From: Tubulanus polymorphus
Lineage: Eukaryota > Animalia > Nemertea
Reading direction: 5' to 3'
DNA: 64,000 nt
Assembly: GCF_964204645.1 (NCBI RefSeq)
Contig: NC_134028.1
Span: 12,881,263 to 12,945,262 of the forward strand
How positions within the stretch are numbered: position 1 is the stretch's first letter; each line of letters starts with the position of its first letter. The notes under the pieces are model-generated. The model saw only the letters and a program-made list of their open reading frames with translations, did not search any database and was not told the DNA's origin. Positions 583 through 64,000 of the stretch are shown here, in pieces. The position numbers and the translations under genes are program-made.

Positions 583-870
583 AGTAATAGGGAATATGGG
601 GGTTCAGGCCAAAGGTCGAAGGGTCGAGCTCATAAGAAATGAAAAATAAATTCTCCCACGCTCGAATTTATTTTTTTTTACTCACTCACCCCTTTAACCT
701 GAACCCCCATATTCCCTATTACTCCTAATAATTTCATATAAATGAATATTTTATAAATGAATAACTTCTAAAATCAATTTTAATAAAAAATTTGATATTA
801 AAATGGAAGCAAATAAGAAGTACTACTGTCCAACATGTAAAAAAGAAATACATAAATGTGATACAACTGA
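583..870 (+). mobile_element. Fragment E: Polinton left end with a 141-bp hairpin (583-723) and a pPolB start stub (ATG 803, MEANKKYYCPTC)
   Basis: agtaatagggaatatgggggttcagg...cctgaacccccatattccctattact; same apex type as element C; followed by the leader seen upstream of pPolB. Confidence 0.85.
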
Positions 871-2594: not shown

Positions 2595-2989
2595 AGTAAT
2601 AGGGATAATAGGCTTTCAAGCCAAAGGTCGAACGGTCGAGCTCATTAAAAAACAAAACATTAAAAGTAATTTAAAACTATAATATATTTTCATATTTATT
2701 ATTAATATTATTTTATATTATAACTAAATATTTATTCTAAGATATCAATAATTTAAAAAGCATATTGTATTAAATCAATTGGTCGCTACCGCTCCGCGAC
2801 CAATTGATTTATTTACAATACACAAATTCATATAATCAAATATATTCAAATAATAATAATTATTCTATTATTCAACTGAAATACACACGGTTATGAAAAT
2901 ATATTATAGTTTTAAATTACTTTTAATATTTGTTTTTAATGAACTCGACCATTCAACCTTTAACCTGAAAGCCTATTATCCCTATTACT
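2595..2989. repeat. A left terminal hairpin (type I)
   Basis: Imperfect palindrome agtaatagggataatagg...cctattatccctattact with apex ggtcgc...gcgacc. Confidence 0.95.
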
Positions 2990-6534: not shown

Positions 6535-6939
6535 AGTAATAGGGGTAATGGGCTTTCAGATCAAAGGTCGAACGGTCGAGCTCATTAAAAAACAAAACAT
6601 TAAAAGTAATTAAAAACTATAATATATTTTCATAACCGTGTGCATTTTATATTAAAAACTAAATATTTATTCTAAGATATCAATAATCTAAAAAGCATAT
6701 TGTATTAAATCAATTGGTCGCTCCACTTCGCCACCGCTCCGCTCCGCGACCAATTGATTTATTTACAATACACAAATTCATATAATCAAATATATTCAAA
6801 TAATAATAATTATTCTATTATTCAACTGAAATACACACGGTTATGAAAATATATTATAGTTTTTAATTACTTTTAATATTTGTTATTAATGAAATCGACC
6901 ATTTAACCTTTGATCTGAAAGCCTATTATCCCTATTACT
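6535..6939. repeat. B terminal hairpin (type I)
   Basis: Imperfect palindrome AGT...ACT. Confidence 0.95.
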
Positions 6940-9263: not shown

Positions 9264-10366
9264 ATGAAAAAAGAACAATATTTAAGAGATTTATATTATA
9301 ACCCAGAGAGTGAAGTATCATATTCTAACGTTTCAGAATTATGGAATAAAATTAGATCTGATAATGAAAATGGTAATATAAAATATAGTGAATTAAAATC
9401 ATGGTTACAAAATCAACCAACATATCAAATCCACAAGAAAATGAATAAAACTTATTTAACAAGAAAAGTTATGGTTTCATATATCGATCAACAATGGCAA
9501 GCAGATTTAATTGACATGAAGAACTTAGAGGAATACAACAAAGGATATTTCTGGATATTAAATGTTATAGATATATTCAGTAGATACGCATGGTCAATTC
9601 CAATCAAAAATAAAACTGGTATAGAAGTAACAAATGCTTTTAAATCTATATTTAAAGAAGCTATTCCAGATAAGATACAATTTGATGAAGGTAAGGAATT
9701 TTATAACAAACATTTCAAAAAACTATTATCTGATAACGATGTAGACTATTTTTCAATACACTCAGATAAAAAAGCATCTATTATAGAAAGATTTAATAAA
9801 ACATTGAAAACTAGAATGTGGAAATACTTTACTGCTAATGAAACATATAAATATATCGATGAGTCTATAATTATATTAGATGATTTAGTGAAAGGTTATA
9901 ATAATTCTAAACATAGTTCTATAAATATGAAACCTATACAAGCTAGAAAAGAAGATAATTCAGAAATAGTTTGGAATAATTTATATGAAGCGTTTGTTAC
10001 ACATGATTTCGGTGAACCTAGATTCAAAATTGGACAACACGTAAGAATATCTAACTAAGAAAAACATTTTATAAAGGTTATACCCCTAATTTTACAGAAG
10101 AAATATTCAAGATTAAAAAGATAATATTAACTAAACCTTTTGTTTATAAACTAGAAGATCTAAAAGATGAAGAAATATCAGGTTATTTCTATGAACAAGA
10201 ATTATCACTTGTACCAAACCCAGATGAAATAGAATACAAAATAGAAAAAGTATTGAAAACAAAAACTCTTAAAGGGAAAAAGTATTCTTTGGTGAAATAT
10301 AAAGGATACGATGATAAATTTAATGAATGGATTTTATCTAGTAAAATTAAAAGAATAAATGAATAA
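9264..10366 (+). pseudogene. B retroviral-type integrase with C-terminal chromodomain; 1-nt deletion gives a stop at 10056-10058
   Basis: WQADLID, QFDEGKEF, IERFNKTLK; chromodomain in another frame. Confidence 0.92.
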
Positions 10367-10976
10367 AGATTTATTTTTATTTATATTTGAACCGCATAAT
10401 ATGTTAGTTACTGGTGTAACCAATTGTGGTAAAACACATTTCATATTTGATTTGTTAGAAACTATTTATAAGAATCATTTTGATAATATAATATTATTCT
10501 GTCCTACTTATGAAATGAATAAAACATATAACAGAGATATAGTTAAGATAAAAAAGTTTATTATATTAAATCCTAAAACAGTAAAAGAAAATTTAGATAA
10601 TTGTATTAAAATAGCAATTGATATTTATAAAGGATCAAATACATTATTCATTGTAGATGATTGCGCAAATTTACATGATTCAAAAGTTAGAGGAAGTGAG
10701 TTATGTTATTTAGCTTTCTCTGGGAGACATTTCGGGATAACAACATGGGATTTAAATCAAAAATATAATTCAATTGTTAAAGACTTTAGAGAAAACATTA
10801 GATTTCTAGTTTTATTTTATAACAAAAATAAAAAATCTATGCAACAATCATTGGAAGAAAATCAAATTATACCTACTGAATTACATGATGAATATATGAA
10901 TAAATTAAAGAATAATAAAGGTTCAAAATTATTACTGAGACTACAATTTCCCTATGAATATAAATTTATAAAATAA
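10359..10976 (+). CDS. B A32/FtsK-like packaging ATPase
   Basis: Walker A GVTNCGKT, Walker B FIVDD, GRH motif. Confidence 0.92.
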   Translation: MNKDLFLFIFEPHNMLVTGVTNCGKTHFIFDLLETIYKNHFDNIILFCPTYEMNKTYNRDIVKIKKFIILNPKTVKENLDNCIKIAIDIYKGSNTLFIVDDCANLHDSKVRGSELCYLAFSGRHFGITTWDLNQKYNSIVKDFRENIRFLVLFYNKNKKSMQQSLEENQIIPTELHDEYMNKLKNNKGSKLLLRLQFPYEYKFIK

Positions 10977-23038: not shown

Positions 23039-26000
23039 TTAACACGTTAGAATTCTTTTCATTATCTCGTTCTCTTTTGTTTCTTCTCTTTTAAATTTTA
23101 AGTATTCATCTAAATTACAACCATAAGCAACTGTATGAATTCCATCATCTAAAATATATCTTTTATCATCAAATGGGTTTAGACTTATCTTTTCAATTTC
23201 TTATAATAAATATTTCATGATCTTCAGATCTTAAACATCTCATCTTATGTTTTCTAACTTCTTCATTGAATATACAATTGATGTAATCTTTGAAATGAAT
23301 ATTCTTTTCTACTACACTTTTGGTTATTCCTTTTAACTTTTTAGCTTCATGTTCTTTAGTTTTATATGAATACATTTTAGATCTAATACCAATGAATTAA
23401 ATCATTTCTTCACCACCTAATTCATCTTTGAATTTACCGGGAACTTTTTTATTATCATTGCTAAACAATTCATGAGCTTTAGGATAATTACTAAAATCAA
23501 AATGATGTTTTAATGTTTTTAAATCATCAGTTATGTTATCAGTTTTTATCTTTAATATGTAAGAAACTGTATCAAAATATAATATTTCTATATGTTTTTC
23601 TCCAAAAAGTGGTTGTAATACATTATAATAGAATTCATACATTACTAATTTTGATAATTCTAAAACTGAAGCGCCAACATAGATTGGTTTATTAAATTTC
23701 ATTGATGCTCTTCTCATTTTAACTGCGGCTAAATTTTCATCAAATATTCTGTTACCAATGAACTTAGGATATGATTGTAAATGTCTAATTCTTTTACCAT
23801 TACTGACTAACTCAATATCATTTCTATTTCTAATATTTTCACAAGTCTTACCATAGAATGCTTTATTCATTAACTTGAAGAAATCTTTCTCGAAATCAGT
23901 TTTAGCTTCAGTTCTCTGTTTGGTGTTAAAATCTATATATTTTTCTAACCACTTAGATTGACTAAATGAAATATATCTATGTACTTTTTTTAGAATCATT
24001 CCTTGATTCAAATAGAATTTTAACATTCTATAATGTACTACATAATTATATTTATCTTCTTGAGTTACCATTAACTTTTCTGTATGAATATGATTTTCGG
24101 GTTTAATTCTTTTTTGATAATTTGATAATTCTTCATGAGTTACAGTTTTATGTTCTGGACAGTAAGCTAGATTTCTAGATTTAAATTTAATATGTTCAGG
24201 ATATTCTAAATCTACAACAAAAAAGTAACCAGTATCTGAATCATCTGCAATATCTAGAATTCTTTTCTTCCAATCAAATTTATCATTAATTTCATTCTGT
24301 AAAACTTCACTTATTTCAAATACTCCATAAGGTTGTGGTTCCATCATTGCCCAACCATACAAATTATTTGCATCTATATGTAATAACTTATATCCAGGGT
24401 TATCATTTACATTGAAATATCTATCACCTAATACACCTGAAACACCTCCTCTTATAGATTTTTCAAATAATAATAATTGATCTATATTTGTTAACAAATC
24501 CATTTTTATATCTGTAAATTTTAATCCACAATCCCATGTTAATCCTGGTGATGAATAACAATGGCAAGGATCAATATTAAAATATTTTAGGTTTACATCT
24601 CTAAACCTTTCGAATATATCGGTTAATAATAATACATCTGATTTTAAATATAAATCTACTAATTGCCCATGATTTTCTATTTTGAAATGATTCCAAATAT
24701 TCAATGTTCTATTATAGACTTCATCTTTAACATATTCATTTTTTAATTCATCATAAAATTGTTCTTTTAATAATTCAGTTATGTTAAAATCATTATGTGA
24801 TTTATAAAATGAATATGGAATTGCTCCTTTATATCTCATTAATTTGAAATCATCAATATTTGCGTAATGTTGCTTTAATATCTTTAATTCATCATCAACT
24901 AATGATTTTGATAAGTTATCTAATGAACTATTTAAAAATCTATATGAATCTATAAATCTTAAACACCCAAATTGGAATGATATATAATTCTCAGATGTTT
25001 TAGCTAACATTCTAAATTTATAAGTTGGTATTTTATCTTTTGATCTATTTGAATTTAATATTTCTATTTCATTATTAATTTCTTCTATTATATAGCATAA
25101 CTGTTTGATAAATAAATGTGCATCATATCCTGATAGATTATGAAATATAACTGGTACAAAGTTAATTTTCTTAGCTTGTAAGTTACAATTCTTATGTGCA
25201 GCGCCTCTAAACTTTCCGTTCAAATGATCATGGTCTCTTACTTTTTTATCTTTATAATTAAATATCTTTTCACAATAATAACATTTACCTGCAAACGCAA
25301 ATTCTTCTTCATCTTTTTCTGTCATTATAATTTCTATATTTTTATTTAACTTTTCATTAAATCTTATTTCATATTCAATAAATAAGTCACAAAAATGAGT
25401 GATAACATTTTCATTTCTATAATTATAATATTCACTTTTAATTAGTTCTGGATAATCAGATTTAATATATAACCCGAAAGCAGCAGCTGATTGATGAATC
25501 TTTTTAATGGTATTTGTTTTTGGTGGTTCATCTGAAAAATCATTTTCATTAGAATTTAATTTCTTTCTTTTATAATATATTTCTTTTCTATCTTGATCAG
25601 TTAGTTCTTTATTTAATGATTCAAAATCTCCATATATTACGAATGGTACTTTATTTTTGTAATCATATTTTTTGAATTCTAATATTTTATCCTTTTCATT
25701 TGGTAAAACTAATTTACAATAATCATGATTTTCACATAATTGTTTATGATTTAATAACGTACTTTCATTACTGAATCTATGTAAACATTTTCTACATAGA
25801 TATATTTTATGGTGATCATTTTCTGATTTAAAAAATAAATCGATTTGTTTAATCCACATATAATGATTCTCATAATATAGTATATCTATAACATCGTTTG
25901 AATCATAATCTTTTGATAGATATAAAGGTTCTAATGTATAATGTTTTATATTGTTACCTTTTGTATTTGGTAATTTGATTAAATCAAATACATTTATCTT

Positions 26001-27071
26001 TATATTATTATCTCTTTCTATTTTTGGGACGTTTTTAATTATAACAGGATACTTATCTATCTTATAATTATTTTTAAATGGTTTATAATGAGTTAATCTA
26101 CAAATATTATAAGTTGCAGGATGTAAACAACTTATTATAGCCCATAGAAAACATTTATTATCAAAATTTTGTACATTTATTACATCATTAGTTTTAAATG
26201 GTAGTTTAATATAACTTGTTCCATTTATACTATCATCTTTATAATATGATAAATTATTTTCATCAATTGGTTTTGATTTAGTTAACTTATTATATTTTGT
26301 GTTATAAACATGTAAAGTTATAAATATTATCTCATCAAATATTAAACCAGATCCTTCAAAATATTTCTCTTCTATTTTAGTTTTTACTTCATTATAACAT
26401 TTATCTAATTTATCATCTATATGTTGTTTAGATATAATATGTTGTGAATGAGAATTTATATTATATATTGGTTCATCTTCAGATTTTATAAACTTTACTT
26501 TAACTGATATACTAATTTTAGGATATTCAACATCAGTAATTATTTTTATAATATTTTTCATATTTTCTAAATGTTTTTTATTTTCTTCTAATGTTTTTCC
26601 TTTATGAAATTTAAACTCGATAGCTGCTGGACCAATATCACTTTTAAATGCTTCGGTTATCTCTATATCTTTTTTATTATCTAATGAATTAATATAATTT
26701 CTTACATCTTCCATGTATGGTCTTTTATTGTTTAATTTATTTTTTATGCTTTTAATTGTCTTCTGTTTCTTATCGTTATCATTATCAAAATAATCTTCAC
26801 CTAAAATATCATTATTCTTATTTCTAATATGACTTATAGATTTTAAATGTTCTTTATAATATCTTTTATCACTGAATGATTGATTACATGTATCACATTT
26901 GTATGTTTCTTTTTCATTCTTTAATTCATCTAATTTAGATTCTAATATATCATCTTCATATTCTAGTTTCAATTTATTCTCTAAATGTGTTTTAGTTTTA
27001 TTGTGTCTTGCTTTTTGGGATTTATCTATATTGATATTACATGTTGGACAGTAGTACTTATTTGCTTCCAT
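23039..27071 (-). pseudogene. B pPolB, nearly full length (1224-aa ORF); catalytic DTD changed to DTV and C-terminal frameshifts
   Basis: Zn fingers, OTU-like DNKCFLW..HY, exonuclease motifs, EndoVII-like CYYC..DHDH..H.NCN, polymerase motifs. Confidence 0.95.
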
Positions 27072-27151: not shown

Positions 27152-27555
27152 AGTAATAAGGATAATAGGCTTTCGGGTTAAAGGTTGAATGGTCGAGTTC
27201 ATTAAAAACATATATTAAATGTAATTAAAAACTATAATATATTTTCATAACCGTGTGTATTTCAGTTGAATAATAGAATAATTATTATTATTTGAATATA
27301 TTTGATTATATGAATTTGTGTATTGTAAATAAATCAATTGGTCGCGGAGCGGAGCGGTAGCGAAGTGGAGCGACCAATTGATTTAATACAATATGCTTTT
27401 TAAATTATTGATATCTTAGAATAAATATTTAGTTTTAATATAAAATACACACTGTTATGAAAATATATTATAGTTTTTAATTACTTTTAATATTTTGTTT
27501 TTTAATGAGCTCGACCCTTCGACCTTTGATCTGAAAGCCTATTATCCCTATTACT
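27152..27555. repeat. B terminal hairpin (type I)
   Basis: Imperfect palindrome; inverted copy of 6535-6939. Confidence 0.95.
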
Positions 27556-36271: not shown

Positions 36272-36537
36272 AGTAATAGGGGTAATAGGCTTTCAGGCCA
36301 AAGGTCGAACGGTCGAGCTCGTAAAAATGAAAAACATAAAAATAATAACAATTTCTACTTGAATTACTCGCGAAACTCATAAAAATGAAAAATAAATTCT
36401 CACACGCTCGAATTTATTTTTCATTTTCATGAGTTTCACTCCTAATTCAAGTAGAAATTGTAATTATTTTTATGTTTTTCATTTTTACTCACCCGCCCGT
36501 TCAACCTTTAACCTGAAAGCCTATTACCCCTATTACT
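36272..36537. repeat. C left terminal hairpin (type II, 266 bp)
   Basis: Near-complete fold-back with apex aataaattc-tcacacgctc-gaatttatt. Confidence 0.95.
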
Positions 36538-46400: not shown

Positions 46401-46424
46401 ATAATTAATTTTTTTGTTAAATAA

Positions 46425-47672
46425 ATGAGTGGGAGTTATATCAATCCTTCTAAGAATCATAGAATATCCAATGCTATTAAAGCAGAAAGATCACATCATA
46501 TAATTACTCATAACCCTTCAAATATTAATCCCGATGAAACTTTATACGTTAGAATTCCTCGATTAACACAAAATACTTTTTATGTTCCAAATAGTATTTA
46601 TTTATCAGCTGATATAAAAGTAATCGGTAATAATAATAATTATGTTGTTGATAATGTTGGAAGATATTTGATTAAAAAGTTAACAATAAAGATTGGTCCA
46701 GAAACAGTTTTCTCATTAGATGATTATAATTTATTTATGCACTATAAAGATTTATGGTTAACTAAAGAAAATAGAAATAATATGATATTTCAAGGAATTC
46801 AATCAGAAAACCAAAATAAATTAAGATCAGAAGCTAATAGCGCAATATTAACAAATGATGTAGATAAATTGATAAAAAGTATATATGGAAGCAAATATAA
46901 AATTCCATTAGACTTTGAATTGATAAATAATAATGCACCTTTATATAAATACGCAATTCAAGAAGATGTTATATTTGAGATAACATTTGCTCCTGTAAAT
47001 GAAATTGTAATATCTAGCGTTAATAAAGATATGAGTTATAAATTATCGAATATATGTTTAGAATATGATACAGTAACTGATGAAAATATTTCAAGTATAA
47101 TTCAAACTCAATACAATCAAGGATTTTCATTATTATATGATTATATTGATAAATTTAAAACTGTAACTATTAATGCAAATGATGAAATAATAAATGAGAA
47201 TATTAACTTCCCTAGAAGATCTATTAAAGGTATATTGATATTTTTTACTATTGGAACGTATACTAATGGCGCAATAAATGTTGACAATTATTATAATCCT
47301 GAAATAACAAAAGTAGAAATAACTATCGAAGGAATAGCAAATAAAATATTTTGTCAAGGAATGAGAATGATAGATCAATGAATAGAAATTAAAAAACATT
47401 TTATGAATGAAAAAGTAAAATCATTTGAAAATTGTAACATTAATCAAATTGATTATTATACCGGCAATAAATATGCATTATGGTTAGATTTTAGAACAAC
47501 TGAAGATAACTTATTACATGGTTCTGGGAAAAAATTACAAAATACAAAAGATGGAATACAATTATTTATGACAAAGAAAAAGGGAATCAAAAATTTTAAA
47601 ATGCATATTTATATTATATCTGACGCGCAATTAAATATTGTAAATTCACAATTAGATAGTGTTATGTATTAA
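46425..47672 (+). pseudogene. C major capsid protein, single nonsense codon at 47379-47381
   Basis: DQW changed to DQ*; otherwise collinear with A and B. Confidence 0.82.
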
Positions 47673-47704
47673 AATTTTAACTTAAATAAAAATGTATATA
47701 ATAA

Positions 47705-48637: not shown

Positions 48638-48850
48638 ATTGTTAGCGTCTGATAGTGAAAGTGATTCAGAAATTGATTATCTAAAACTTGAATAATAAAG
48701 GTTAAAAATTGTATAAAATAATAGTAAATAAAAAAGGGGTTTAAATTATTTAAGGTATCTAATAGGGTATCAGGTATTAGGGTATTAGGTATTAGGGTAT
48801 CTAATAGGGTATCAGGTATTAGGGTATCTAATACATAGGTATACAATTAG

Positions 48851-49462: not shown

Positions 49463-50543
49463 TTATTCTTTTAATTTTACTAGATAAAATCCATTCATTA
49501 AATTTATCATCATATCCTTTATATTTCACCAAAGAATACTTTTTTCCTTTAAGAGTTTTTGTTTTCAATACTTTTCCTATTTTGTATTCTATTTCATCTG
49601 GATTTGGTACTAATGATAATTCTTGTTCATAAAAATAACCTAATATTTCTTCATCTTTTAAATCAAACAATTTATAAACAAATGGTTTAGTTAATATTAT
49701 CTTTTTAATTTTAAATATTTCTTCTGTAAAATTTGGGGTATAACCTTTATAAAATGTTTTTCGTTATTTAGAAATTCTAACATGTTGTCCTATTTTAAAT
49801 TTAGGTTCTCCAAAATCATGTGTAACAAATGCTCCATATAAATTATTCCAAACTATTTCTGAATTTTCTTCTTTTCTAGCTTGTATAGGTTTCATATTTA
49901 TAGAACTATGTTTAGAATTATTATAACCTTTAACTAAATCATCTAACACATCGATATATTTATATGTTTCATTAGCGGTGAAATATTTCCACATTCTAGT
50001 TTTCAATGTTTTATTAAATCTTTCTATAACAGATGCTTTTTTATCTGAATGTGTTGAAAAATATTCTACATCGTTATCAGATAATAGTTTTTTGAAATGT
50101 TTGTTATAAAATTCCTTACCTTCATCAAATTGTATCTTATCTGGAATAGCTTCTTTAAATATAGATTTAAAAGCATTTGTTACTTCTATACCAGTTTTAT
50201 TTTTAATCGGGATACTCCATGCGTATCTACTGAATATATCTATAACATTTAGTATCCAAAAATATCCTTTGTTGTATTCTTCTAAGTTTTTCATGTCAAT
50301 TAAATCTGCTTGCCATTGTTGATCGATATATGAAACCATAACTTTTCTTGTTAAATATTTTTTATCCATCTTTTTATGAATTTTATATGTTGGTTGATTT
50401 TGTAACCATGATTTTAATTCACTATATTTTATTTTTTCTTTATCAGATTTAATTTTATTCCATAATTCCGAAACACTTGAATATGAAACTTCACTTTCTG
50501 GGTTATAATATAAATCTCTTAAATATTGTTCTTTTTTCATCAT
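49455..50543 (-). pseudogene. C integrase-chromodomain, in-frame TAA at 49764-49766
   Basis: DDE core followed by EYKIGKVL..LVKYKGY..NEW. Confidence 0.92.
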
Positions 50544-50546
50544 ATT

Positions 50547-50930: not shown

Positions 50931-51525
50931 TTATTTTAGTTAATTTTTGTTCTGATTCATTTTCTGTTTCGACGTTTTGTTGTAGTACATCTGTTTCGTT
51001 CTTACCTGATTTATATTCCATAGGTTTGATGTTCGAAAATGTTATAACTCCAGTAGAAATCAATGTCATAACCGATCCTAATTGAAATGAAGCATAACCA
51101 ACCCATTTTTGTAATTCAGTCATAACTAAGTAGTCATTTTTCAAATCACTATATAATTTATTTTCATCATCAATTGGTATTAACTGGTTACATAACTTAG
51201 AATAACATTTGACAATACCATCACTTATAGAGTCGTTTATTCTAGCTAATCTTGACTCTTCATAAATCTTAAAATATTTTATTACTTTATCGGGTTTCAT
51301 AGAGTCTAGTTCTTGAAAAGTTATTATTTTTCCTAAGAAGTCCTTAGATTTCCCGCCAGCAATTAATAATTCAAGATGATGCTTACAATATAAATAGTAT
51401 TCATAATCTATATTGTTATTAACTTGAGCACAATTAGTTGCAACTGTATCTTTATTATCACTTATACCCAAATCATCTAATGTTTTTTCAATATCAATAC
51501 TATTCTTAGTAGATTTCTTTGACAT
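50923..51525 (-). CDS. C MSKKS-family protein
   Basis: Homology to A and B copies. Confidence 0.85.
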   Translation of the reverse strand: MSKKSTKNSIDIEKTLDDLGISDNKDTVATNCAQVNNNIDYEYYLYCKHHLELLIAGGKSKDFLGKIITFQELDSMKPDKVIKYFKIYEESRLARINDSISDGIVKCYSKLCNQLIPIDDENKLYSDLKNDYLVMTELQKWVGYASFQLGSVMTLISTGVITFSNIKPMEYKSGKNETDVLQQNVETENESEQKLTKINE

Positions 51526-51828
51526 TTATATTAAAGAAAAAAAGCAAAAAAAAATATTATAAGTATTCTTCAAATGATATTAGATAGTTAAAGTTAAAGA
51601 ACTCTAGTATTGACTACTGATACTAGCTATTTGAATTTAAAGAATTTCTATTCGGATCTATTCAAAATATAAAGTATTCTCTTCTTGAAAAGAAAATATT
51701 AAAAATATAACAGAATTCACTAGCAGTTGAAGTTATTGTTTTTTTAATATATTTTATTTGAATTCTATTTGATATCTCACTACTATTGTCTATCTATTAG
51801 GAGCAGTAACTATAACTGTCCAGATAAG

Positions 51829-52503
51829 TCATTTCGGATCCTTGATATCAAATTCCTCAACATATTGTTCATTCTGTGGGTTACTATTCCACCAATCAAT
51901 AAATTTCCTTGCTTTATTCAACTGTTCCAAATATAATTGTAAATCTAGTTTATTAGATTTGGTTTGATTTTCTTTCTTTTCTAAAGGCCTTAAATTTTTC
52001 CAACCCCAAATAAGTTTTTTATTGTATTCATCATTCATGTTAAATTTAGATATTGGTAACACGTGATCAATGTGGTAATAATCCCCATAATTATCTATAT
52101 TCATTTTATCATCGAATTGAAATATTATCCATGATTTGAGAAATTCATCTGAACAACCCAATAAATTAGATAGTGTTTCTGAATGCGTTTCTTTGTTGAA
52201 TAATTGTGTTAATCTAGACCTTAAGCATTGTTTCAATCTAAAATTAAGATCTGTTTGATATCTTTCTCTCATATATTTTGTCATATAATAATTATAATGT
52301 TTTATATTATCTTCTCGATATTGTTTGGTGTATAGTTTAGTACAAGTTTTACAACAATATTGAAAACCATCTTTGCTAATCTTACGCTTACTAAATTCTG
52401 TTAATGATTTATCTAATTCACATTTAGAACATTTCTTGTAATATATGTTTATAACGCCAGTGTTATTTGTAATATTGATAGTTTGTGGTTGTTCTGGTTC
52501 CAT
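51829..52503 (-). CDS. C Zn-finger/HNH endonuclease
   Basis: CSKC..CKTC; HIDHVLP..NLRPL...N..K.N. Confidence 0.85.
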   Translation of the reverse strand: MEPEQPQTINITNNTGVINIYYKKCSKCELDKSLTEFSKRKISKDGFQYCCKTCTKLYTKQYREDNIKHYNYYMTKYMRERYQTDLNFRLKQCLRSRLTQLFNKETHSETLSNLLGCSDEFLKSWIIFQFDDKMNIDNYGDYYHIDHVLPISKFNMNDEYNKKLIWGWKNLRPLEKKENQTKSNKLDLQLYLEQLNKARKFIDWWNSNPQNEQYVEEFDIKDPK

Positions 52504-52645
52504 TTATTATACATATTTTTTTACTAAAACTGATTTATTTTTGTTTGAAATCTATGTGCTGCTCTTTTCCATTCCTTGTTCTTTTTCATTCCTCGCCGCC
52601 GTAGTTGATAAATCATTTCGATTCCTTGATATCAAAATCATACAA

Positions 52646-53215
52646 GCGGCCGGCCATTTATGGCCGGTTTTGCTTAATGCGCATGCGTTAAACATAATTA
52701 TATATTCATTCTATAAATTCTGTAAAATAGAAACGACCGACATGAAATATCAAAACGTGTTCGCATTAGGCAAAACCGCTCTTATTGGAGCGTTTTTGCT
52801 TAATGCGCATGCGCTAATCATAATTATATATTCATTCTATAAATTCTGTAAAATAGAAACAACACATGTGTTACATGTATCACTTGCGGCCATTTATGGC
52901 CGGTTTTGCTTAATGCACATGTGTTAATCATAATTATATATTCATTCTATAAATTCTGTAAAATAGAAACAACATATGCGTTACATGCGTTGCATGCGTT
53001 ACATGCAGCCATTTGTGGCCGGTTTTGCTTAATGTATATGTGTTAATCATAATTATATATTCATTCTATAAATTCTGTAAAATAGAAACAACTGAACATA
53101 GAAAATTCAAACGCATTCATGTCTGCGTCACATGCGTTACATGTGTTACATGCGGCCATTTATGGCCGGTTTTGCTTAATGCGTATGTGTTAAACATAAT
53201 AGAAACGACTGAACA
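52646..53215. repeat. About five degenerate tandem units of 120-140 bp
   Basis: ggccatttatggccggttttgcttaatg...aattctgtaaaatagaaac recurs. Confidence 0.85.
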
Positions 53216-53717
53216 TAAAAATTCACAAATCAGATTTACACAATACATTATACAAGTTGTTCAGTCATTTCTTCTAATACATCATTTGATTTCTATAAAT
53301 ACAATTTATAATTACAAACATTTTTTCAATTGCTGGTAAATATTTAACTACATCAACAAATGATAAACTTAATCATTGGAGTCTCAATGTTTTTGAAATT
53401 CTTATATTTCTTCTTCGATCTTTTGGTGATTCTATTGGTTTGATATCCATTGTTGTTGATTCCTCAGTCAGAAAGAGTATCTTGAGTTTCTCTATCGCTT
53501 CTTGATGTGTATGATGTTTTATTAATCTAAAAGATATTAGCGGCAACTCTAACTATCTAAAAGATATACTAAATACACTTAAATATATCTAAAGGTTTCA
53601 TATTTAATAGCTCTAATAACTACAACAAACAGTACTTACATTTAGATTTATAATTGTAAACTATAAACTCCTAATTTCGTTTCGAAAGATAGAATATCCT
53701 GAGCACAATATTACAGC

Positions 53718-53835
53718 GTATATCCATTTCCGGGGCGATTTCTAGAATGACACGTCGTTGATTATACCACGTCATCTAGTTCCGGCGCGCCTTTCTAGAA
53801 TATTCTACACGTTTCTGATTATGACGTGTCATAAT
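53718..53835 (-). promoter_or_regulatory. Candidate stress-responsive Pol II promoter (HSE, UPRE/CRE-like, ETS-like motifs)
   Basis: TTCtaGAAtaTTC 53793-53805; TTCTAGAA 53740-53747; CCACGTCA 53767-53774; ATGACGTGTCAT 53821-53832; TTCCGG twice. Confidence 0.45.
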
Positions 53836-54158
53836 ATCTCGTTGTTATAGTAACAACCGTAACAGCTGCGAATTTATAGATTTATTCTATAGCTCTGTAC
53901 ATTGAATGTATATAGGCTCAAATAGAATCATGTTTTAGTATAAACATCTAGAACAAGCGTGTTGAGACTTGTAAATTATGAGATTTGTGATTCGCTAACG
54001 TTCGCCGTATACACAACGCGTTGAAGTTGAAAAAAATCAATAATAAAAGCATTTAGATCAATGAAATTAATTAACTCTTTACAATTGAAATATAAGGTGG
54101 TAATATATGTTTACTAGAGTTAATACAACCAACTATATAGCTGAGTATTATCGGGTGT

Positions 54159-54332
54159 TTATAACGATTCAACGTATTTTTCACTATGTGTTGAGTTCCT
54201 TAATTCGATAAATGTTTTTGCTTTAACCAACTGGACTAAAAACAAATGTGTTCTAGTTTTATTGTGTCTTGCTTTTTGAGACTTGTCTATATCGATATTA
54301 CATGTTGGGCAGTAGTACTTATTTGCTTCCAT
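54159..54332 (-). CDS. Chimeric mini-ORF (57 aa): pPolB Zn finger fused to HNH tail
   Basis: Manual translation MEANKYYCPTC...KTRTHL-FLVQLVKAKTFIELRNSTHSEKYVESL*. Confidence 0.45.
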   Translation of the reverse strand: MEANKYYCPTCNIDIDKSQKARHNKTRTHLFLVQLVKAKTFIELRNSTHSEKYVESL

Positions 54333-54412
54333 TTTAATACTATATTTTTTATTAAAATTGATTTTAGAAGTTCAATGATTTAAATGTTATTCATATATAT
54401 GAATATTTTAAG

Positions 54413-54678
54413 AGTAATAGGGGTAATAGGCTTTCAGGTTAAAGGTTGAACGGGCGGGTGAGTAAAAATGAAAAACATAAAAATAATTACAATTTCTACT
54501 TGAATTAGGAGTGAAACTCATGAAAATGAAAAATAAATTCGAGCGTGTGAGAATTTATTTTTCATTTTTATGAGTTTCGCGAGTAATTCAAGTAGAAATT
54601 GTTATTATTTTTATGTTTTTCATTTTTACGAGCTCGACCGTTCGACCTTTGGCCTGAAAGCCTATTACCCCTATTACT
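54413..54678. repeat. C right terminal hairpin (type II)
   Basis: Inverted copy of 36272-36537. Confidence 0.95.
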
Positions 54679-56714: not shown

Positions 56715-57254
56715 CACTCAAAAAGTAATAAAGGTTGAAAATTGTATAAAATAATAGTAAATAAAAAAGGGGGTTTTAAGTATTAAGGTATCTAATACGT
56801 ATTTAATACATATCTAATACATATCTAATACATATCTAATACATATCGAATACAATCTAATACATAAAATATCTTATTTTATAAACTGATATTCATATGG
56901 AAATTGAATCCTCAGTAATAATAAATAACCTTTATTATTTTCAAACTAATTCATATATTAGTTGAAAAAATAAAAATAAATTGGTTGAAAATTGTATAAA
57001 TAATATTTATTTTTAAAAAGGGGGTTTTAAGTAATTAAGGTATCTAATAGGGTATCAGGTATTAGGGTATCTAATAGGGTATCTAATACATAGGTATATT
57101 TTAAACATATTTCAATATTTATATTTGTATGAGTTAGATTTTTAAACATTAAAAGTGTTAGTAAAGTTTTATTGAAATAATTCATATATATTCATGAATA
57201 ACATATTAATGAATAACTTCTAAAATCAATTTAGTAAAAAAATATGTATAATAA

Positions 57255-57908
57255 ATGGAACCAGAACAACCACAAACTATAAATATTACAAATAACACTG
57301 GTGTCATAAACATATACTACAAGAGGTGTTCTAAATGTGAATTAGATAAATTAGCTTTAACAGAATTTAGTAAGCGTAAGATTAGCAAAGATGGTTTTCA
57401 ATATTGCTGTAAAACTTGTACTAAACTATATACCAAACAATATCGAGAGGATAATATAGAACATTTTATTTATTATATGGCAGAATATATGAGAGAAAGA
57501 TATCAAACAGATCTTAATTTTAGATTGAAACAATGCTTAAGATCTAGATTAACACAATTATTCAACAAAGAAACGCATTCAGAAACACTTTCTAATTTAT
57601 TGGGTTGTACAGATGAATTTTTCATATCATGGATAATATATCAATTCGATGATAAAATGAATATAGATAATTATGGTGAATACTTTCATATTGATCATGT
57701 GTTGCCGATTTCTAAATTTAACATGAATGATGAATACAATAAAAAACTTATTTGGAGTTGGAAAAATTTAAGGCCTTTAGAAAAGAAGGAAAACATAATT
57801 AAATCTAATAAACTAGATATACAGTTATATTTAGATCAACTGGATAAAGCAAAGACATTTGTTGAATTATGGAACTCAACACATAATGAAAAATACGTTG
57901 AATGTTAA
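57255..57908 (+). CDS. A Zn-finger/HNH endonuclease
   Basis: Same motifs as C; last codons displaced by insert 57901-58733. Confidence 0.85.
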   Translation: MEPEQPQTINITNNTGVINIYYKRCSKCELDKLALTEFSKRKISKDGFQYCCKTCTKLYTKQYREDNIEHFIYYMAEYMRERYQTDLNFRLKQCLRSRLTQLFNKETHSETLSNLLGCTDEFFISWIIYQFDDKMNIDNYGEYFHIDHVLPISKFNMNDEYNKKLIWSWKNLRPLEKKENIIKSNKLDIQLYLDQLDKAKTFVELWNSTHNEKYVEC

Positions 57909-59085
57909 ACGCTTAGAAAACCGGTTACTCTCGATCTATGTCAAACCGCCTGTATGTAATTGTATTAGGTTGTTTACAAAAGCATCTGTCGCACGTTATA
58001 TTCAGTTGAATAGGGTGTATCTCACTTGAATATTGATCGAATGTGCTATTTCAGTTGAAAAGGATTGATCAATTATATTACAAAGGAAGGAACATCTGTT
58101 GCACCAGATAGTATTTAGCTAGTGAATAACTGGCAGTTATAAACGCGCAGCACATAAGCATAGGAACGTATAGGATATTCTCTCTATAAACACAATTTTA
58201 GGAGTTTACAGTTATAAATGTAAGTACTGTTTTTGTTGTTATTAAGGCGTTGGAAAACGCTAAACATGTAAAAATTATCCTGGTAAGATGCGCCACAAAA
58301 TGGTCATGTTTAAGTGTTGTAATTAATATTTTACAACTACAACTTCAAGTTAGTTTTATTCTACGCTAGATATTTGTCTTTTAGATAACAAAATGAAGAC
58401 CATTGAATCAAGAAAGTGAAGATAGATGGATGTGGAATCAGAAATAATGGATATTTCAACTCATGAGACTGTAGCAGTTTAGCCATACTGTATAGGCTTC
58501 CAATGCATTACGTTTGTCGGAATTTCAATTCCGTCATTAAGCTGTTGTTAATGACACACAGTGACAAATGTTGTATTATACTTTATTGATTCCTGCATTC
58601 CACGCATAACTTACCGGGCCTGAGTGGAGCGGCTTGGAATGTGGAAATCGATAATGATTGTAGAATTAAATATATGTGTGTTTATGAAATAGTATTTCCA
58701 CCAGTCGTTTCTTTGAATTTATTTTCAGTTTTAGGATTTATTATCAAGAATCCGAAATGACTTATCTGGACAGTTATAATTACTGCTCCTAATAGATAGA
58801 CAATAGTAGTGAGATAATCTAAATCCTAATTTAAATAAAAAGTATTTAAAAAACAATAACTTCAACAAGCTAGTGAATTCTATTATATTTTTAATACTTT
58901 CTTTTCAAAAAGAATACTTTATATTTTGAATAGATTCAAATAGAAATTCTTTAAATTCAAATAGCTAGTATCAGTAGTCAATACTAGAATTCTTTAACTT
59001 TAACTATCTAGTATTAATCTAAAGAGATACTGGTATCATTTTATAATACTTATAATATTTTTCTTATTAAATTTCTCTAATATAA

Positions 59086-59742
59086 ATGTCAAAGAAATCG
59101 AGTAAGAATAGTATTGATATTGAAAAAACATTAGATGATTTAGGTATTAGTGATAATAAGGATCCAGTTGTTTCTAATTCTATTCAAGTTAATAACAATA
59201 TTGATTATGAATACTATTTATATTGTAAACACCATCTTGAGTTACTAATTGCTGGCGGGAAATCTAAACAATTTTTAACTAAGACCATTACTTTTCAAGA
59301 ACTAGACTCTATGAAACCAGATAAAGTAATAAAATATTTTAAGATTTATGAAGAAGCTAGATTGGCCCGAATAAATGATTCTATTTCAGATGGTATTGTC
59401 AAATGTTATTCTAAGTTACGTAACCGGTTGATACCAATTGATGATGAAAATAAATTATATAGTGATTTGAAAAATGACTATTTAGTTATGACTGAATTAC
59501 AAAAATGGGTTGGTTATGCTTCATTTCAATTAGGATCGGTTATGACATTAATTTCTACTGGCGTCATAACATTTTCGAACATCAAACCTATGGAATATAA
59601 ATCAGGTAAGAACGAAACAGATGTACTACAACCAAACGTCGAAACAGAAAATGAATCAGAACAAAAATTAACAAATAAATGTGTGATGGAGTTAAAAAAA
59701 AGGTTAAATCCGAGAAACAAATTAAATGGGCAAGAGAATTAG
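59086..59742 (+). CDS. A MSKKS-family protein (extended by frameshift)
   Basis: Homology to B and C copies. Confidence 0.78.
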   Translation: MSKKSSKNSIDIEKTLDDLGISDNKDPVVSNSIQVNNNIDYEYYLYCKHHLELLIAGGKSKQFLTKTITFQELDSMKPDKVIKYFKIYEEARLARINDSISDGIVKCYSKLRNRLIPIDDENKLYSDLKNDYLVMTELQKWVGYASFQLGSVMTLISTGVITFSNIKPMEYKSGKNETDVLQPNVETENESEQKLTNKCVMELKKRLNPRNKLNGQEN

Positions 59743-60073
59743 GTAAAAGATCTTCAGAATTGAAAAAAGCTAAGAAAAAGAAATTAACTGATATAAATGA
59801 ATCACAGAAATTATCTGATATTGATTCGAATGATAATCCATCTGATTCTTCTAATGCTGGAATTATAATATATAAATTATAATTATATTTAATTATAAAT
59901 TATATATTACAATTGGATTAGTAACAGTTATTATATTATCCGGTGTAATATATAAATCAAAATTCAAATCTGATGATAAATATGATTCCAATGACAATAA
60001 ACCTATTATACCAGAAAATAAGTCAAATCATAAAGTCATTGAAATTAAATCTAAATTATTATTAATGGATTAA
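59679..60073 (+). pseudogene. A MSDGV-family protein, disrupted
   Basis: Homology; stop at 59882. Confidence 0.75.
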
Positions 60074-60081
60074 AATAGAAA

Positions 60082-61173
60082 ATGAAAAAAGAACAATATT
60101 TAAGAGATTTATATTATAACCCAGAAAGTGAAGTATCATATTCTAGCGTTACAGAAGTATGGAATAAAATAAAATCTGATAATGAAAATGGTAATATAAA
60201 ATATAGTGAATTAAAATCATGGTTACAAAATCAACCAACATATCAAATACACAAGAAAATGGATAAAACTTATTTAACAAGGAAAGTTATGGTTTCATAT
60301 ATCGATCAACAATGGCAAGCAGATTTAATTGACATGAAGAACTTAGAAGAATACAACAAATGATATTTCTGGATACTGAATGTTATAGACATACTCAGTC
60401 GATACGCATGGTCAATTCCAATCAAAAATAAAACTGGTATAGAAGTTACAAATGCTTTTAAATCTATATTTAAAGAAGCTATTCCAGATAAGATACAATT
60501 TGATGAAGGTAAGGAATTCTATAACAAACATTTTAAAAAACTATTATCTGATAACGATGTAGATTATTTTTCAACACATTCAGATAAAAAAGCATCTATT
60601 ATAGAAAGATTTAATAAAACATTGAAAACTAGAATGTGGAAATATTTTACTGCTAATGAAACATATAAATATATCGATGTGTTAGATGATTTAGTGAAAG
60701 GTTATAATAATTCTAAACATAGTTCTATAAATATGAAACCTATACAAGCTAGAAAAGAAGATAATTCGGAAATAGTTTGGAATAATTTGTATGGTGTGTT
60801 TGTTACACATGATTTCGGTGAACCTAAATCTAAAATAGGACAACACGTAAGAATATCTAAATATAGAAAAACATTTTATAAAGGTTATACCCCTAATTTT
60901 ACAGAAGAAATATTCAAGATTAAAAAGATAATATTAACTAAACCTTTTGTTTATAAACTAGAAGATCTAAAAGATGAAGAAATATTAGGTTATTTCTATG
61001 AACAAGAATTATCACTTGTACCAAATCCAGATGAAATAGAATACAAAATAGAAAAAGTATTGAAATCAAAAACTCTTAAAGGAAAAAAGTATTCTTTGGT
61101 GAAATATAAAGGATATGATGATAAATTTAATGAATGGATTTTATCTAGTAAAATTAAAAGAATAAATGAATAA
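60082..61173 (+). pseudogene. A integrase-chromodomain, nonsense at 60361-60363
   Basis: GGA changed to TGA; C-terminal half intact through the chromodomain. Confidence 0.92.
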
Positions 61174-61789
61174 AGATTTATTTATATTTGAACCGCATAA
61201 TATGTTAGTTACTGGTGTAACCAACTGTGGTAAAACACATTTCATATTAGATTTGTTAGAAACTATTTATAAGAATCATTTTGATAATATAATAATATTT
61301 GATAATATATTTTGTCCTACTTATGAAATGAATAAAACATATAATAGAGATATAGTTAAGATGAAAAAGTTTATTATATTAAATCCTAAAACAGTAAAAG
61401 AAAATTTAGATAATTGTATAAAAATAGCAATTGATACTTATTAAGGATCAAATACATTATTCATTGTAGATGATTGCGCAAATTTACATGATTCAAAAGT
61501 GAGAGAAAGTGAGTTATGTTATTTAGCTTTCTCTGGGAGACATTTTGGGATAACAACATGGGTTTTAAATCAAAAATATAATTCAATTGTTAAAGACTTT
61601 AGGGAGAATATAAGATTTTTAGTTTTATTTTATAACAAAGATAAAAAATCTATGCAACAATCATTGGAAGAAAATCAAATTATACCTACTGAATTACATG
61701 ATGAATATATGAATAAATTAAAGAATAATAAAGGTTCAAAATTATTACTGAGACTACAATTTCCCTATGAATATAAGTTTATAAAATAA
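61166..61789 (+). pseudogene. A packaging ATPase, stop at 61442-61444
   Basis: Walker A and GRH fragments. Confidence 0.9.
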
Positions 61790-61879
61790 CTATTTATATA
61801 TCTATTCTATAAGAGCTTACACTTTTATATTGAATAATCTGTCAATTTAAATATTATTCATTTACATGAATATTTTAAG

Positions 61880-62271
61880 AGTAATAGGGATAATAGGCTT
61901 TCAGGTTAAAGGTTGAATGGTCGAGTTCATTAAAAACAAATATTAAAAGTAATTTAAAACTATAATATATTTTCATAACCGTGTGTATTTCAGTTGAATA
62001 ATAGAATAATTATTATTATTTGAATATATTTGATTATATGAATTTGTGTATTGTAAATAAATCAATTGGTCGCGGAGCGGTAGCGAAGTGGAGCGACCAA
62101 TTGATATAATACAATATGCTTTTTAAATTATTGATATCTTAGAATAAATATTTAGTTATAATATAAAATACACACAAAATATATTATAGTTTTAAATTAC
62201 TTTTAATGTTTTGTTTTTTAATGAGCTCGACCGTTCGACCTTTGGCTTGAAAGCCTATTATCCCTATTACT
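61880..62271. repeat. A right terminal hairpin (type I)
   Basis: Inverted copy of 2595-2989. Confidence 0.95.
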
Positions 62272-64000
62272 GTCGAGCTACTAGATACGGTGCGGGCTAT
62301 GATCTAACAACTATTTAACTGACCAATTTTGACCAATACTGAGCTTAAAGTAATTTGTCTATTCTAGAAGCAACACAGTCGTGTTTTGTATCAAATAATT
62401 CGAAATGGTGTGGGCTTTCATCTAACAACTATTCAACTGACCAAATCTTGACCACTACTGACCACATATTATAGCTATATTTATCTGTTTCGGAAACAAC
62501 TTTATCAGTTGTATTCATCATTCGAACCCACAATTTTCCTTATCCTATGAATATGGAGACCCATCCTCGTATGAGAATGAATATAATGTGATTTCAATTA
62601 AAGATGACACATGGCCTCATATCATTACGTTATGTTTTTTAACAGGTGGGCGAGAATATATTCTTATGTTTATGTTTCTCTGAATGTTGCTATATTTAAG
62701 AGTTAAATAATTTCAGTCTACCAAACAAAGGATTTTTCTGTATATGTTTCGTGTCCTGTTTTTCCATAACCCTAGGACTGCATTTTAGGTATTTTTCGCG
62801 GATGACCGAAAGCTGCTGTCCCTTTCTAGTAATTTGATGATATCTGTCGAAATCTAAATTTTAAAAAAGAATCAGGCATATCTCCTTGTTTGACTAAGTA
62901 TGAACTCAACTTTAAGGGACACTCCCTTAAAGGCGCCGAAGTAAAATCATGTGTCGAGTGGAGATGATATTGTGTCAGAAACTAGTGTCAACCAGATGTG
63001 TTCCCATTAAACGAACCGACCGCGAGCCGAGTCGATGTGAGATGTGGCCTACACTGAAAATCTCAAGCGCTACCACTGGTTTTTAGGTGCCTCTGAATGT
63101 CGGCCGTTAAAAATCTAAACAATTGCCATTTGGAAAGGACCTAGTTAGAGAAAATGCTAGATGTGTATATCGTGTGATACAGGCTCCATATTTCAGGTGC
63201 GTTTGGAATTTAACCTTGTTTATAACGAAACACACGTGTTCTTATCTATTTTAGAAGAGCGCATGATAGTGCAATAAAGAACTGACAATGAAAAAGGGGT
63301 GACAGGTGACAGATATCACACCGAATTTCAATTCCTATGAACACTTTTCATATAGTGAATTCTATACAAGAGTTTAAAAAAAACTTGAAATATTAACGAA
63401 ACAGTTTTTTGACGGACAAATCGTTACCCTCAAATTTACCTCCAATTTGTAATGTATGTGATGTATAAACTGACTTTAGACCGTTTAATATCGATGATAA
63501 CAAGGTATCACCGACGCTGACATTTTCTGACGCTAACTATTATGACCCGGACCGATTCAATTCAATTAAGAAAACGCGTTCCGATACAGTAAATAAACAT
63601 ACCGCTGTTGATTTTTCGAAGTATTGATATCCACGAACAAAACTATACTATTATAGAATGTTTTAAAGGAACTGCTTTTAATAACAGCATGAATAAACTT
63701 ACTTCACAAACAAGGAAGTACATTTTTAAGTTGTGAACGGTCGAACACCAGTTATTCACAGTAACCTGTGATTTGGATATTCTCGGAGCATTCCTTCTTT
63801 ATTTATTTATGAAATGACGTCACAAACTTTCAGATTCGCGCCAGTATGCGCGCCATGATTGATGATTGCTACTTCCACGGGTGTAATCTTTAAGTAACTT
63901 CAAGTTTAAAATAGGAAGCACAGTACATCCATAGAAACTACGCGCAGAAATTATTATCAGAGTTTAACATTTCGTTTCAAAGTTATTAGTAGTCAAATCT

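What the first reader, a model, noticed from the sequence alone, without database searches (positions are those of the whole stretch)
61880..62271. Hairpin mismatches are strand-biased G-T wobbles and the arms co-vary
Seen: the outer arm ttcaagccaaaggtcgaacggtcgagctc differs from the inner arm ttcaggttaaaggttgaatggtcgagttc only by transitions. These give G-T pairs on the strand carrying the 3' end and A-C mismatches on the other. The same holds at B right (cgggtt vs gatctg) and for cc/tt in C and E. Arms change together between elements: GGGATAATAGG in A, GGGGTAATAGG in C, GGGAATATGGGGG in E, each with a matching partner. B left has two exceptions. Inference: selection for folding of one specific single strand rather than a passive inverted duplication.
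Basis: partly seen in the sequence, partly recalled or inferred. Interest (0 to 1): 0.75.

Follow-up and report, generated by a model that had tools for sequence, protein, structure and literature searches.

The report
Strand-polarised end hairpins of a Polinton
Each end of this virus-like mobile element (a Polinton/Maverick) is a long fold-back sequence whose two halves change together and whose inherited mismatches are all of the stable, G-containing kind on one particular DNA strand, so that strand likely folds on itself and is likely recopied while the element replicates.

Summary
61880-62271 is the right tip of a Polinton/Maverick; each of 7 whole termini in the window begins with a 141-405 nt imperfect palindrome. 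On the strand carrying the 3' end, mismatches present at both ends of an element or in several elements are 9 G-T: 0 A-C (P=0.004), or 14 G-containing: 0 C-containing; mismatches private to one end are 3: 7. Genomic reads of the same species label show matching allele shares in both arms, including transversions, and unmatched transitions almost all G-T. CpG decay after insertion is ruled out. A second, distant family repeats the polarity (8:0, 6:0, 7:1; found post hoc, looser count); eight candidates pooled under the strict filter do not (23:24). The polymerase keeps a terminal-protein domain and the ends do not flip, so the best reading is a protein-primed element whose 3' strand folds back and is recopied from its partner arm; co-variation alone does not prove selection. 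Terminal palindromes are described for protist relatives (2026 preprint) and this scan noted Polinton end hairpins on other DNA; I found no report of the strand polarity.

The parts
61880..62271 (+). Terminal imperfect palindrome at the right end of element A; the + strand is the 3'-end strand and is the one with G-T pairs
61904..61941 (+). Inner-arm side of the seven inherited G-T pairs (61904, 61906, 61907, 61914, 61918, 61926, 61941)
62208..62247 (+). Outer-arm partners of those pairs (62247, 62245, 62244, 62237, 62233, 62225, 62208)
62248..62271 (+). Terminal 24 bases, perfectly complementary to 61880-61903; ends flush at the 3' tip
62060..62105 (+). Central small stem with a G-rich loop on the 3'-end strand (11 G of 22 bases in 62070-62091); same orientation in all four A and B termini
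61805..61879 (.). Rest of A's right terminal inverted repeat, inward of the palindrome (TIR about 467 aligned columns, 438 identical to A left)
2595..2989 (-). A left terminal palindrome (395 nt); same seven G-T pairs
6535..6939 (-). B left terminal palindrome (405 nt); mosaic, carries three A-C mismatches, two of them at common alleles
27152..27555 (+). B right terminal palindrome (404 nt); B (6535-27555) is inserted in A's polymerase gene, target duplication 5 of 6
36272..36537 (-). C left terminal palindrome (266 nt); C (36272-54678) is inserted in A with a perfect 6-bp target duplication
54413..54678 (+). C right terminal palindrome (266 nt); identical to C left; 6 G-T and 5 G-G/G-A mismatches
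583..723 (-). E left terminal palindrome (141 nt); relative to C it lacks about 60 nt from each arm at mirror positions; element body truncated
23397..27071 (-). Protein-primed B-family DNA polymerase of element B: terminal-protein-like domain, vOTU protease, HNH/endonuclease VII-like insert; the frame stops at residue 1224, short of its homologues
49764..50543 (-). Retroviral-type (rve) integrase, element C; B copy at 9264-10058; A's chromodomain part at 60634-61173
10359..10976 (+). A32-like packaging ATPase, element B
46425..47381 (+). Probable major capsid protein, N-terminal part, element C (weak match only)
   Evidence: Capsid_N E 0.006, below cut-off; no structure match

Best explanation
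These are the tips of a Polinton/Maverick, and the palindrome is likely a working end structure: during replication outside the chromosome the strand that carries the 3' end would be single-stranded for a time, fold back so that its tip pairs flush with the inner arm, and likely be trimmed and re-extended on that arm, while new strands are predicted to start from the terminal protein. Shown: the element type, the palindromes, the arm co-variation, the polarity of inherited mismatches, the single orientation, the intact predicted terminal-protein and vOTU motifs. Inferred: (1) strand-displacement synthesis or excision leaves the 3'-end strand unpaired; (2) it folds; (3) copying within the fold keeps the arms alike, which explains paired transversions and mirror-image deletions; (4) mismatches that kink or melt the fold (those with C) are removed by repair or selection, while G-T, G-G and G-A survive; (5) a few mismatches are kept for long times (columns 35 and 47 in every A, B and C end), probably because they tell outer from inner arm and weaken the cruciform in the host chromosome.
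For: Inherited 9 G-T: 0 A-C and 14: 0 G- versus C-containing, private 3: 4 and 3: 7. Reads: paired allele shares at column 11 (37/33% on C, 62/54% on A), 16 (51/53%, 49/52%), 25 (G-C to T-A, 18/19%), 39 (C-G to G-C, 41/25%); unmatched transitions give G-T at columns 25, 26, 27, 28, 35, 45, 78, 110. 5 of 57 pairs change on both sides among 5 distinct ends, 0 of 500 shuffles as high, slid controls 0-1 (the structure came from these sequences). E lacks mirror-image blocks from both arms. Second family with 33-34% polymerase identity to ours and a different stem sequence: 8:0, 6:0, 7:1, 3' strand 7-9 kcal/mol more stable. Polymerase N-terminus folds as a five-stranded sheet with two helices (pLDDT 87), best matches Y-family little-finger domains (E 0.002-0.01, none at 0.001), Ser241 in 61 of 65 and next Gly in 55 of 65 aligned proteins, Cys307 and His403 invariant, as described for the terminal protein and vOTU domains in 10.1101/2024.03.18.585575 (section 6 and passages). 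All 7 ends share one orientation (chance 1 in 64 under free flipping). G-G, G-A and G-T are the stiffest mismatches and C-containing the most flexible (PMC3834817, passages). Fold-back repair of 3' overhangs of a protein-primed replicon is documented in Streptomyces (PMC5449611, abstract).
Against: No direct evidence of a single-stranded or extrachromosomal form. Only 8-10 independent events in this family; 7 of the 14 inherited sites rest on element C alone, and reads show several of them polymorphic (columns 76, 96, 98, 110). I sorted sites into inherited and private by hand after seeing them. B left carries A-C at two common alleles, and 22% of reads show a change at column 117 of C that could be an A-C. 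Eight candidate hairpins upstream of distant polymerases pooled to 13 G-T: 11 A-C and 23: 24 under the strict filter; that filter passed only 15 columns of L108, and L117/L127 (98.7% alike, so one lineage) were found afterwards. Trimming from the 3' tip explains co-variation in the last 24 bases but not at columns 39 and 76-79, which lie among or behind conserved G-T pairs; an internal repair or selection step is needed. Read tables showed only 40 of 158 and 40 of 73 variant rows, unphased, with reads assigned to arms by best fit.
Confidence: 0.5

Rival explanations
1. Hairpin-primed replication: the flush 3' fold-back primes copying of the element as in parvoviruses, and the HNH/endonuclease VII-like domain in the polymerase (or the separate HNH-like gene) cuts the hairpin or dimer junction asymmetrically, with the conserved mismatches marking which arm is cut.
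For: The folded strand is exactly the one whose 3'-OH points into the element body. The polymerase carries an Endonuclease_7-like insert (E 5e-5, 23.5 bits against cut-off 23.6; above cut-off in P0005). T4 endonuclease VII is reported to cut G-containing mismatches least (second-hand in PMC3834817, passage), which matches what survives. Hairpin priming was proposed for palindrome-ended virophages and PLVs (10.64898/2026.07.28.741278, section 7). Some parvovirus termini occur in one form only (PMC8242256, passage).
Against: Terminal-protein and vOTU motifs are conserved. No flipped end among 7, and flip-type alleles at columns 27 and 35 are absent from read tables whose lowest listed share is 17%. 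The HNH insert is shared by many polymerases with no hairpin seen, and has been read as a captured homing nuclease (10.1101/2023.08.22.554363 and 10.1101/2024.03.18.585575, passages).
Confidence: 0.17
2. The filter acts on the other strand: the palindrome is kept for a duplex or protein-binding reason, and C-containing mismatches are favoured on the 5'-end (inward-transcribed) strand so that it forms poor double-stranded RNA or a poor cruciform in the host.
For: Same counts read from the other strand. RNA folding differs by 10-35 kcal/mol between strands. Extruding columns 1-50 as a cruciform costs about 41-43 kcal/mol.
Against: Does not explain why the arms are kept complementary through transversions and mirror deletions. 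The 5' strand still folds strongly (z -19), so it would hardly escape double-stranded RNA sensing.
Confidence: 0.13
3. Neutral mutation bias: the 3'-end strand is single-stranded more often and suffers C-to-T and A-to-G deamination, which yields G-T on that strand with no filter; arm conversion supplies the co-variation.
For: Any G-T on that strand can be written as C-to-T or A-to-G. The non-palindromic part of C's repeat is T- and G-rich on that strand (106 of 169 bases).
Against: Five of the 14 inherited mismatches are G-G or G-A, which deamination does not make. Changes private to one of three copies show no strand bias next to either end (C-to-T 12 of 182 against G-to-A 16 of 293, P=0.69; 14 of 115 against 6 of 86, P=0.24; small numbers, diluted by host-era mutations). 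Unpaired loop CpGs are kept while paired C would have been lost. The same sites persist across subfamilies whose stems otherwise differ.
Confidence: 0.14
4. Passive inverted duplication that decayed by CpG deamination after insertion.
For: 3 of 9 inherited G-T sites are in a CpG context.
Against: Sites are shared by both ends and by separate insertions; CpG decay strikes both strands and would give A-C as often; hairpin CpG is enriched; arms track each other family-wide.
Confidence: 0.03

Closest known systems
Polintons/Mavericks with a pPolB2-type polymerase carrying an HNH insert (10.1101/2023.08.22.554363, passages)
   Same: About 18-kb element, pPolB with HNH insert, rve integrase, A32 ATPase, TIRs of 435-600 bp, 6-bp target duplication
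   Different: That paper's text has no occurrence of 'hairpin' or 'palindrom'; here every TIR starts with a 141-405 nt palindrome with polarised mismatches
Palindrome-ended endogenous virophages and PLVs of Halocafeteria seosinensis (10.64898/2026.07.28.741278, section 7 and passages)
   Same: Palindrome at the TIR tip next to the target duplication; rve integrase; hairpin role in replication proposed
   Different: There 52 nt in the figured subtype and mostly with non-pPolB replication genes; here 3-8 times longer, with a pPolB that keeps its terminal-protein domain; no strand polarity in the passages I read
Streptomyces telomeres (Tap/Tpg end patching; PMC5449611, abstract)
   Same: Protein-primed linear replicon; palindromic 3' strand folds; truncated tips restored by extension on the fold-back
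   Different: Bacterial, internal origin, several short palindromes and a dedicated primase; none of these genes was seen here. Works-like only
Parvovirus terminal hairpins (PMC8242256, passages; asymmetric junction resolution of MVM recalled)
   Same: Imperfect terminal hairpins of 120-400 nt with a paired 3' end and conserved mismatches
   Different: No HUH Rep/NS1 found; own protein-primed polymerase; integrates with a target duplication; identical ends that do not flip
Poxvirus hairpin telomeres (PMC8956199, abstract)
   Same: Conserved mismatches in a terminal hairpin are functional (packaging)
   Different: Covalently closed flip-and-flop ends; both complementary forms exist, so no strand polarity

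Membership tests
Polinton/Maverick | Protein-primed family B polymerase with terminal-protein and vOTU domains | tested here: met
   Exonuclease and polymerase motifs in alignment A1; N-terminal model and fold matches; conserved Ser, Cys, His. All three copies have broken frames
Polinton/Maverick | Retroviral-type integrase | tested here: met
   rve E 1e-9 above cut-off in two copies; chromodomain in the third
Polinton/Maverick | A32-like packaging ATPase | tested here: met
   Pox_A32 E 1.7e-9
Polinton/Maverick | Terminal inverted repeats of 100-1500 bp and 5-8 bp target duplication | tested here: met
   C: 435 of 435 identical, 6 of 6 duplication; B: 5 of 6; A: none
Polinton/Maverick | Double jelly-roll major capsid protein | tested here: inconclusive
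   Capsid_N E 0.006, below cut-off; no PDB sequence match; not folded
Polinton/Maverick | Adenain-like maturation protease | tested here: inconclusive
   No Pfam match among 27 + 7 window ORFs scanned; a recalled motif search found no convincing hit
Rolling-hairpin replicons (parvovirus type) | HUH Rep/NS1 initiator nuclease | tested here: not met
   No such match among the ORFs scanned; not all 60 ORFs were scanned, the rest being mostly copies
Rolling-hairpin replicons (parvovirus type) | Flip and flop forms at identical ends | tested here: not met
   7 of 7 ends in one orientation; flip alleles not among listed read variants, lowest listed share 17%
Rolling-hairpin replicons (parvovirus type) | 3' hairpin primes DNA synthesis | not testable with these tools
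   Needs replication intermediates or biochemistry
Structured RNA family | Match to an Rfam model | tested here: not met
   0 matches at gathering score in 61500-62600

The most novel reading that the evidence does not exclude
This Polinton lineage runs a hybrid replication: the 3' end primes itself on its own hairpin, and the endonuclease VII-like domain inside the polymerase edits or resolves that hairpin. The surviving mismatch spectrum (G-containing only, on the 3' strand) is then the footprint of the element's own nuclease, and the first sequence evidence for which strand of a Polinton end is single-stranded.
Probability: 0.17. Interest if true: 0.87.

Novelty: new variant of a known kind. 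Interest (0 to 1): 0.6.

Why it matters
How Polintons leave the chromosome and replicate is known only from models (the excised single-stranded 'racket' and the hairpin alternative are both drawn as proposals in 10.64898/2026.07.28.741278). A polarised mismatch spectrum is a fossil record of which strand is unpaired and folded. It gives a cheap test that can be run on any Polinton family with many copies, and it names specific bases for biochemistry. It may also give the nuclease insert of pPolB2 polymerases, so far read as a passenger, a candidate substrate.

Tried and rejected
No whole genome is held for this window, so further termini could not be read as sequences; reads gave unphased allele shares only. 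No RNA holder listed. Exact terminal motifs found 0 matches in viral contigs. The window hairpin has no BLAST match among 132 fetched loci, and the closest polymerase relative L004 (75%) has another gene upstream and no hairpin in its 727 upstream bases. Of 132 loci, 60 had an estimated 700 or more bases upstream of the polymerase and 33 had some inverted repeat of 45 bits or more; I inspected 14 and counted the 8 that lay upstream of the polymerase and looked like possible ends, leaving out 6 as downstream, internal, array-like or very AT-rich. Those 8 show no pooled bias and most are not proven ends. Read joints that change strand at mirror positions (11-45 reads each) were considered as flip-flop evidence and rejected as unproven: A right has a private 7-base gap that produces such joints. 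Fourfold-site composition along the genes showed no gradient and too few G and C to test. A polymerase search of solved structures by sequence found only zinc fingers. The capsid candidate was not confirmed. One parvovirus paper could not be read, so MVM's asymmetric resolution is recalled. Supplements of the bioRxiv preprints were not seen; the Halocafeteria tables may list mismatch details. A strict RNA reading was not favoured, since the 3'-end strand at the left end is antisense to the polymerase.

Full report
What the place is. The window is a nest of Polinton/Maverick elements. Self-comparison and ORF scans show three large copies: C (36272-54678, terminal repeats 435 of 435 identical, perfect 6-bp target duplication), B (6535-27555, inserted in A's polymerase gene, duplication 5 of 6) and A (2595-62271, split by B and C, no duplication), plus the left tip of a fourth, E (583-723). 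They encode an rve integrase, an A32-like ATPase, a weakly matched capsid protein and a family B polymerase whose named relatives are from insects and molluscs. The host is not established; it is probably an invertebrate (inference). The finding, 61880-62271, is the right tip of A. Every one of the 7 whole termini begins with an imperfect palindrome of 141-405 nt, so each terminal inverted repeat is itself a fold-back.

Checking the observation. I aligned inner arm against outer arm with scores that do not favour transitions, always on the strand that carries the element's 3' end. A right has 7 G-T and 0 A-C in its long stem; the 3' strand folds at -103.7 against -93.2 kcal/mol, and better in 7 of 7 ends. 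Because copies share history, I counted sites, not copies, and split them by hand into inherited (same at both ends of an element or in more than one element) and private. Inherited: 9 G-T: 0 A-C (P=0.004; 8: 0 with neighbours merged, P=0.008), and with C's G-G and G-A mismatches 14 G-containing: 0 C-containing, plus one T-T. Private: 3 G-T: 4 A-C, or 3: 7, plus three neutral (Fisher P=0.019 and 3.5e-4). E passed only 22 columns of the strict filter, without mismatch; its three G-T come from the looser count. A 490-nt inverted-repeat element of another kind gave 4: 4.

The larger sample. No genome was held, but raw genomic reads under the same species label (run X6, 12% read) cover many copies. 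Allele shares match between mirror positions at column 11 (37 and 33% on C; 62 and 54% on A), column 16 (51 and 53%; 49 and 52%), column 25 (G-C to T-A, 18 and 19%) and, less closely, column 39 (C-G to G-C, 41 and 25%). Where transitions are unmatched they make G-T: columns 25 (27%), 26 (about 27%), 27 (72%), 28 (79%), 35 (no variant listed), 45, 78 and 110. One change at column 117 (22%) could be an A-C. B left's A-C pairs at columns 11 and 16 are therefore not new mutations but a common outer-arm type joined to the other inner-arm type, a mosaic. Limits: only 40 of 158 and 40 of 73 variant rows were shown, the lowest listed share being 17%; shares are unphased; reads are placed by best fit. 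On 5 distinct ends, 5 of 57 pairs change on both sides, above all 500 shuffles and above the slid controls, and E lacks mirror-image blocks of about 60 nt from both arms relative to C.

Other families. Among 132 loci fetched by polymerase similarity, several have a long palindrome just upstream of the polymerase. Eight candidates pooled under the strict filter show no bias (13: 11 for transitions, 23: 24 overall), but they are single copies and mostly unproven ends. One of them, L108, starts with AGT like ours, and its hairpin found two relatives, L117 and L127 (98.7% alike to each other, 73% to L108). Their terminal stems differ in sequence yet pair, and over all aligned columns the 3' strand carries 8: 0, 6: 0 and 7: 1 G- versus C-containing mismatches and folds 7-9 kcal/mol better. 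This is an independent repeat of the polarity, but found after the fact and with a looser count. The polarity is thus shown for this family, likely for a second, and not shown to be general.

Mutation or filter. CpG decay after insertion fails: the sites predate insertion, 3 of 9 are in CpG context (column 64 by hand), and CpG observed/expected is 1.5-1.7 in the hairpins, 0.67 in C's body and 0.9-1.1 in the flanks. Strand-biased deamination before insertion is harder to exclude, but five inherited mismatches are G-G or G-A, loop CpGs survive, and changes private to one of three copies show no strand bias next to either end (P=0.69 and 0.24). What survives on the 3' strand is the class reported as stiffest, G-G and G-A, then G-T, with C-containing mismatches most flexible and most readily cut by T4 endonuclease VII (PMC3834817, passages; the 1993 source not seen). 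The same counts can be read as a preference for weak pairing on the 5' strand; the data cannot separate the two.

How it most likely works. The polymerase N-terminus (residues 130-440, modelled with 65 sequences, pLDDT 87) has the sheet-and-two-helix fold, best though sub-threshold matches to Y-family little-finger domains, a Ser-Gly in the loop before the last strand (61 and 55 of 65) and invariant Cys and His. These are the marks given for the terminal-protein and vOTU domains in 10.1101/2024.03.18.585575 (section 6 and passages), so protein priming is predicted. All 7 ends have one orientation (1 in 64 by chance) and flip-type alleles are not in the read tables, which argues against flip-flop terminal resolution. 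I therefore infer that the 3'-end strand is freed during strand-displacement replication (adenovirus model, recalled) or excision, folds with its tip flush, and is recopied from the inner arm, as truncated Streptomyces telomeres are restored on their fold-back (PMC5449611, abstract). Copying explains paired changes without two-step selection; repair or selection removes mismatches that weaken the fold; a few G-T pairs are kept, perhaps to distinguish the arms and to hinder cruciform formation (about 41-43 kcal/mol for columns 1-50). Steps from folding onward are inferred. Confidence 0.5. Rivals: hairpin priming with resolution by the polymerase's endonuclease VII-like insert (0.17), neutral deamination (0.14), avoidance of folding on the 5' strand (0.13), passive decay (0.03).

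What is known. Palindromes at the tips of the terminal repeats are described for virophages and PLVs of Halocafeteria, mostly without pPolB, with hairpin priming proposed (10.64898/2026.07.28.741278, section 7 and passages). The nematode pPolB2 paper has no occurrence of 'hairpin' or 'palindrom' (10.1101/2023.08.22.554363, passages). Parvovirus and poxvirus hairpins carry functional mismatches (PMC8242256, passages; PMC8956199, abstract). This scan noted end hairpins in other Polintons (e1-637947, e1-637854, e1-9976435; not checked here). In the listings of searches I saw no paper on strand-polarised mismatches in Polinton ends; the two papers listed were not opened, the library lacks most subscription papers, and preprint supplements were not seen.

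Verdict. A real feature of a known kind of element: a new variant, interest 0.6. The polarity is sound for this family and offers a sequence-only test of how Polinton ends behave; the mechanism remains inferred.

Noticed in passing
window 2595-62271: The elements are nested: B sits in A's polymerase gene and C in A's body. A's two ends have no matching target duplication, so they may come from different insertions or a flank was rearranged.
   Followed up: partly
window about 57000-61805: A's integrase-ATPase module is inverted relative to B and C; one breakpoint lies near a short tandem repeat also present at 10995-11064 and 48753-48842.
   Followed up: partly
window 132-377: A much more diverged right end of the same kind, with only the inner arm and loop left; it keeps the inner-arm T at the column-35 site and the same loop orientation.
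   Followed up: partly
window 13487-17681 and 30432-32832: The same unrelated insertion (98% alike) lies in B and in A; the B copy holds two further inserts, one of them a 490-nt inverted-repeat element at 16277-16766 that served as control.
   Followed up: partly
window 51829-52503 (-) and 57255-57908 (+): A separate gene with a weak HNH match (HNH_4 E 0.036 and 0.33, below cut-off): a second candidate nuclease.
   Followed up: no
window 52651-53239: Array of five 110-147 nt repeats with small internal palindromes near C's right end.
   Followed up: no
read tables: The family is abundant (depth about 400 in the body and 1300-3800 in the repeat from 1.9 billion letters) and shows many mirror or partial deletions of the hairpin interior; outer-arm depth is nearly twice inner-arm depth, unexplained.
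   Followed up: no
L060:1-253 and L059:1-99: Two contigs of 14.7-14.9 kb begin in a 250-nt palindrome next to a pPolB; they could be free, non-integrated genomes. No clear mismatch polarity (1:2).
   Followed up: partly
L101-L132: 32 pPolB2 loci were found in prokaryote genome bins; they are probably mis-binned eukaryotic or viral contigs.
   Followed up: no
L003:1991-2178: 188-nt palindrome starting AGT just upstream of a 31%-identical polymerase, with internal repeats; no polarity (3:2).
   Followed up: partly
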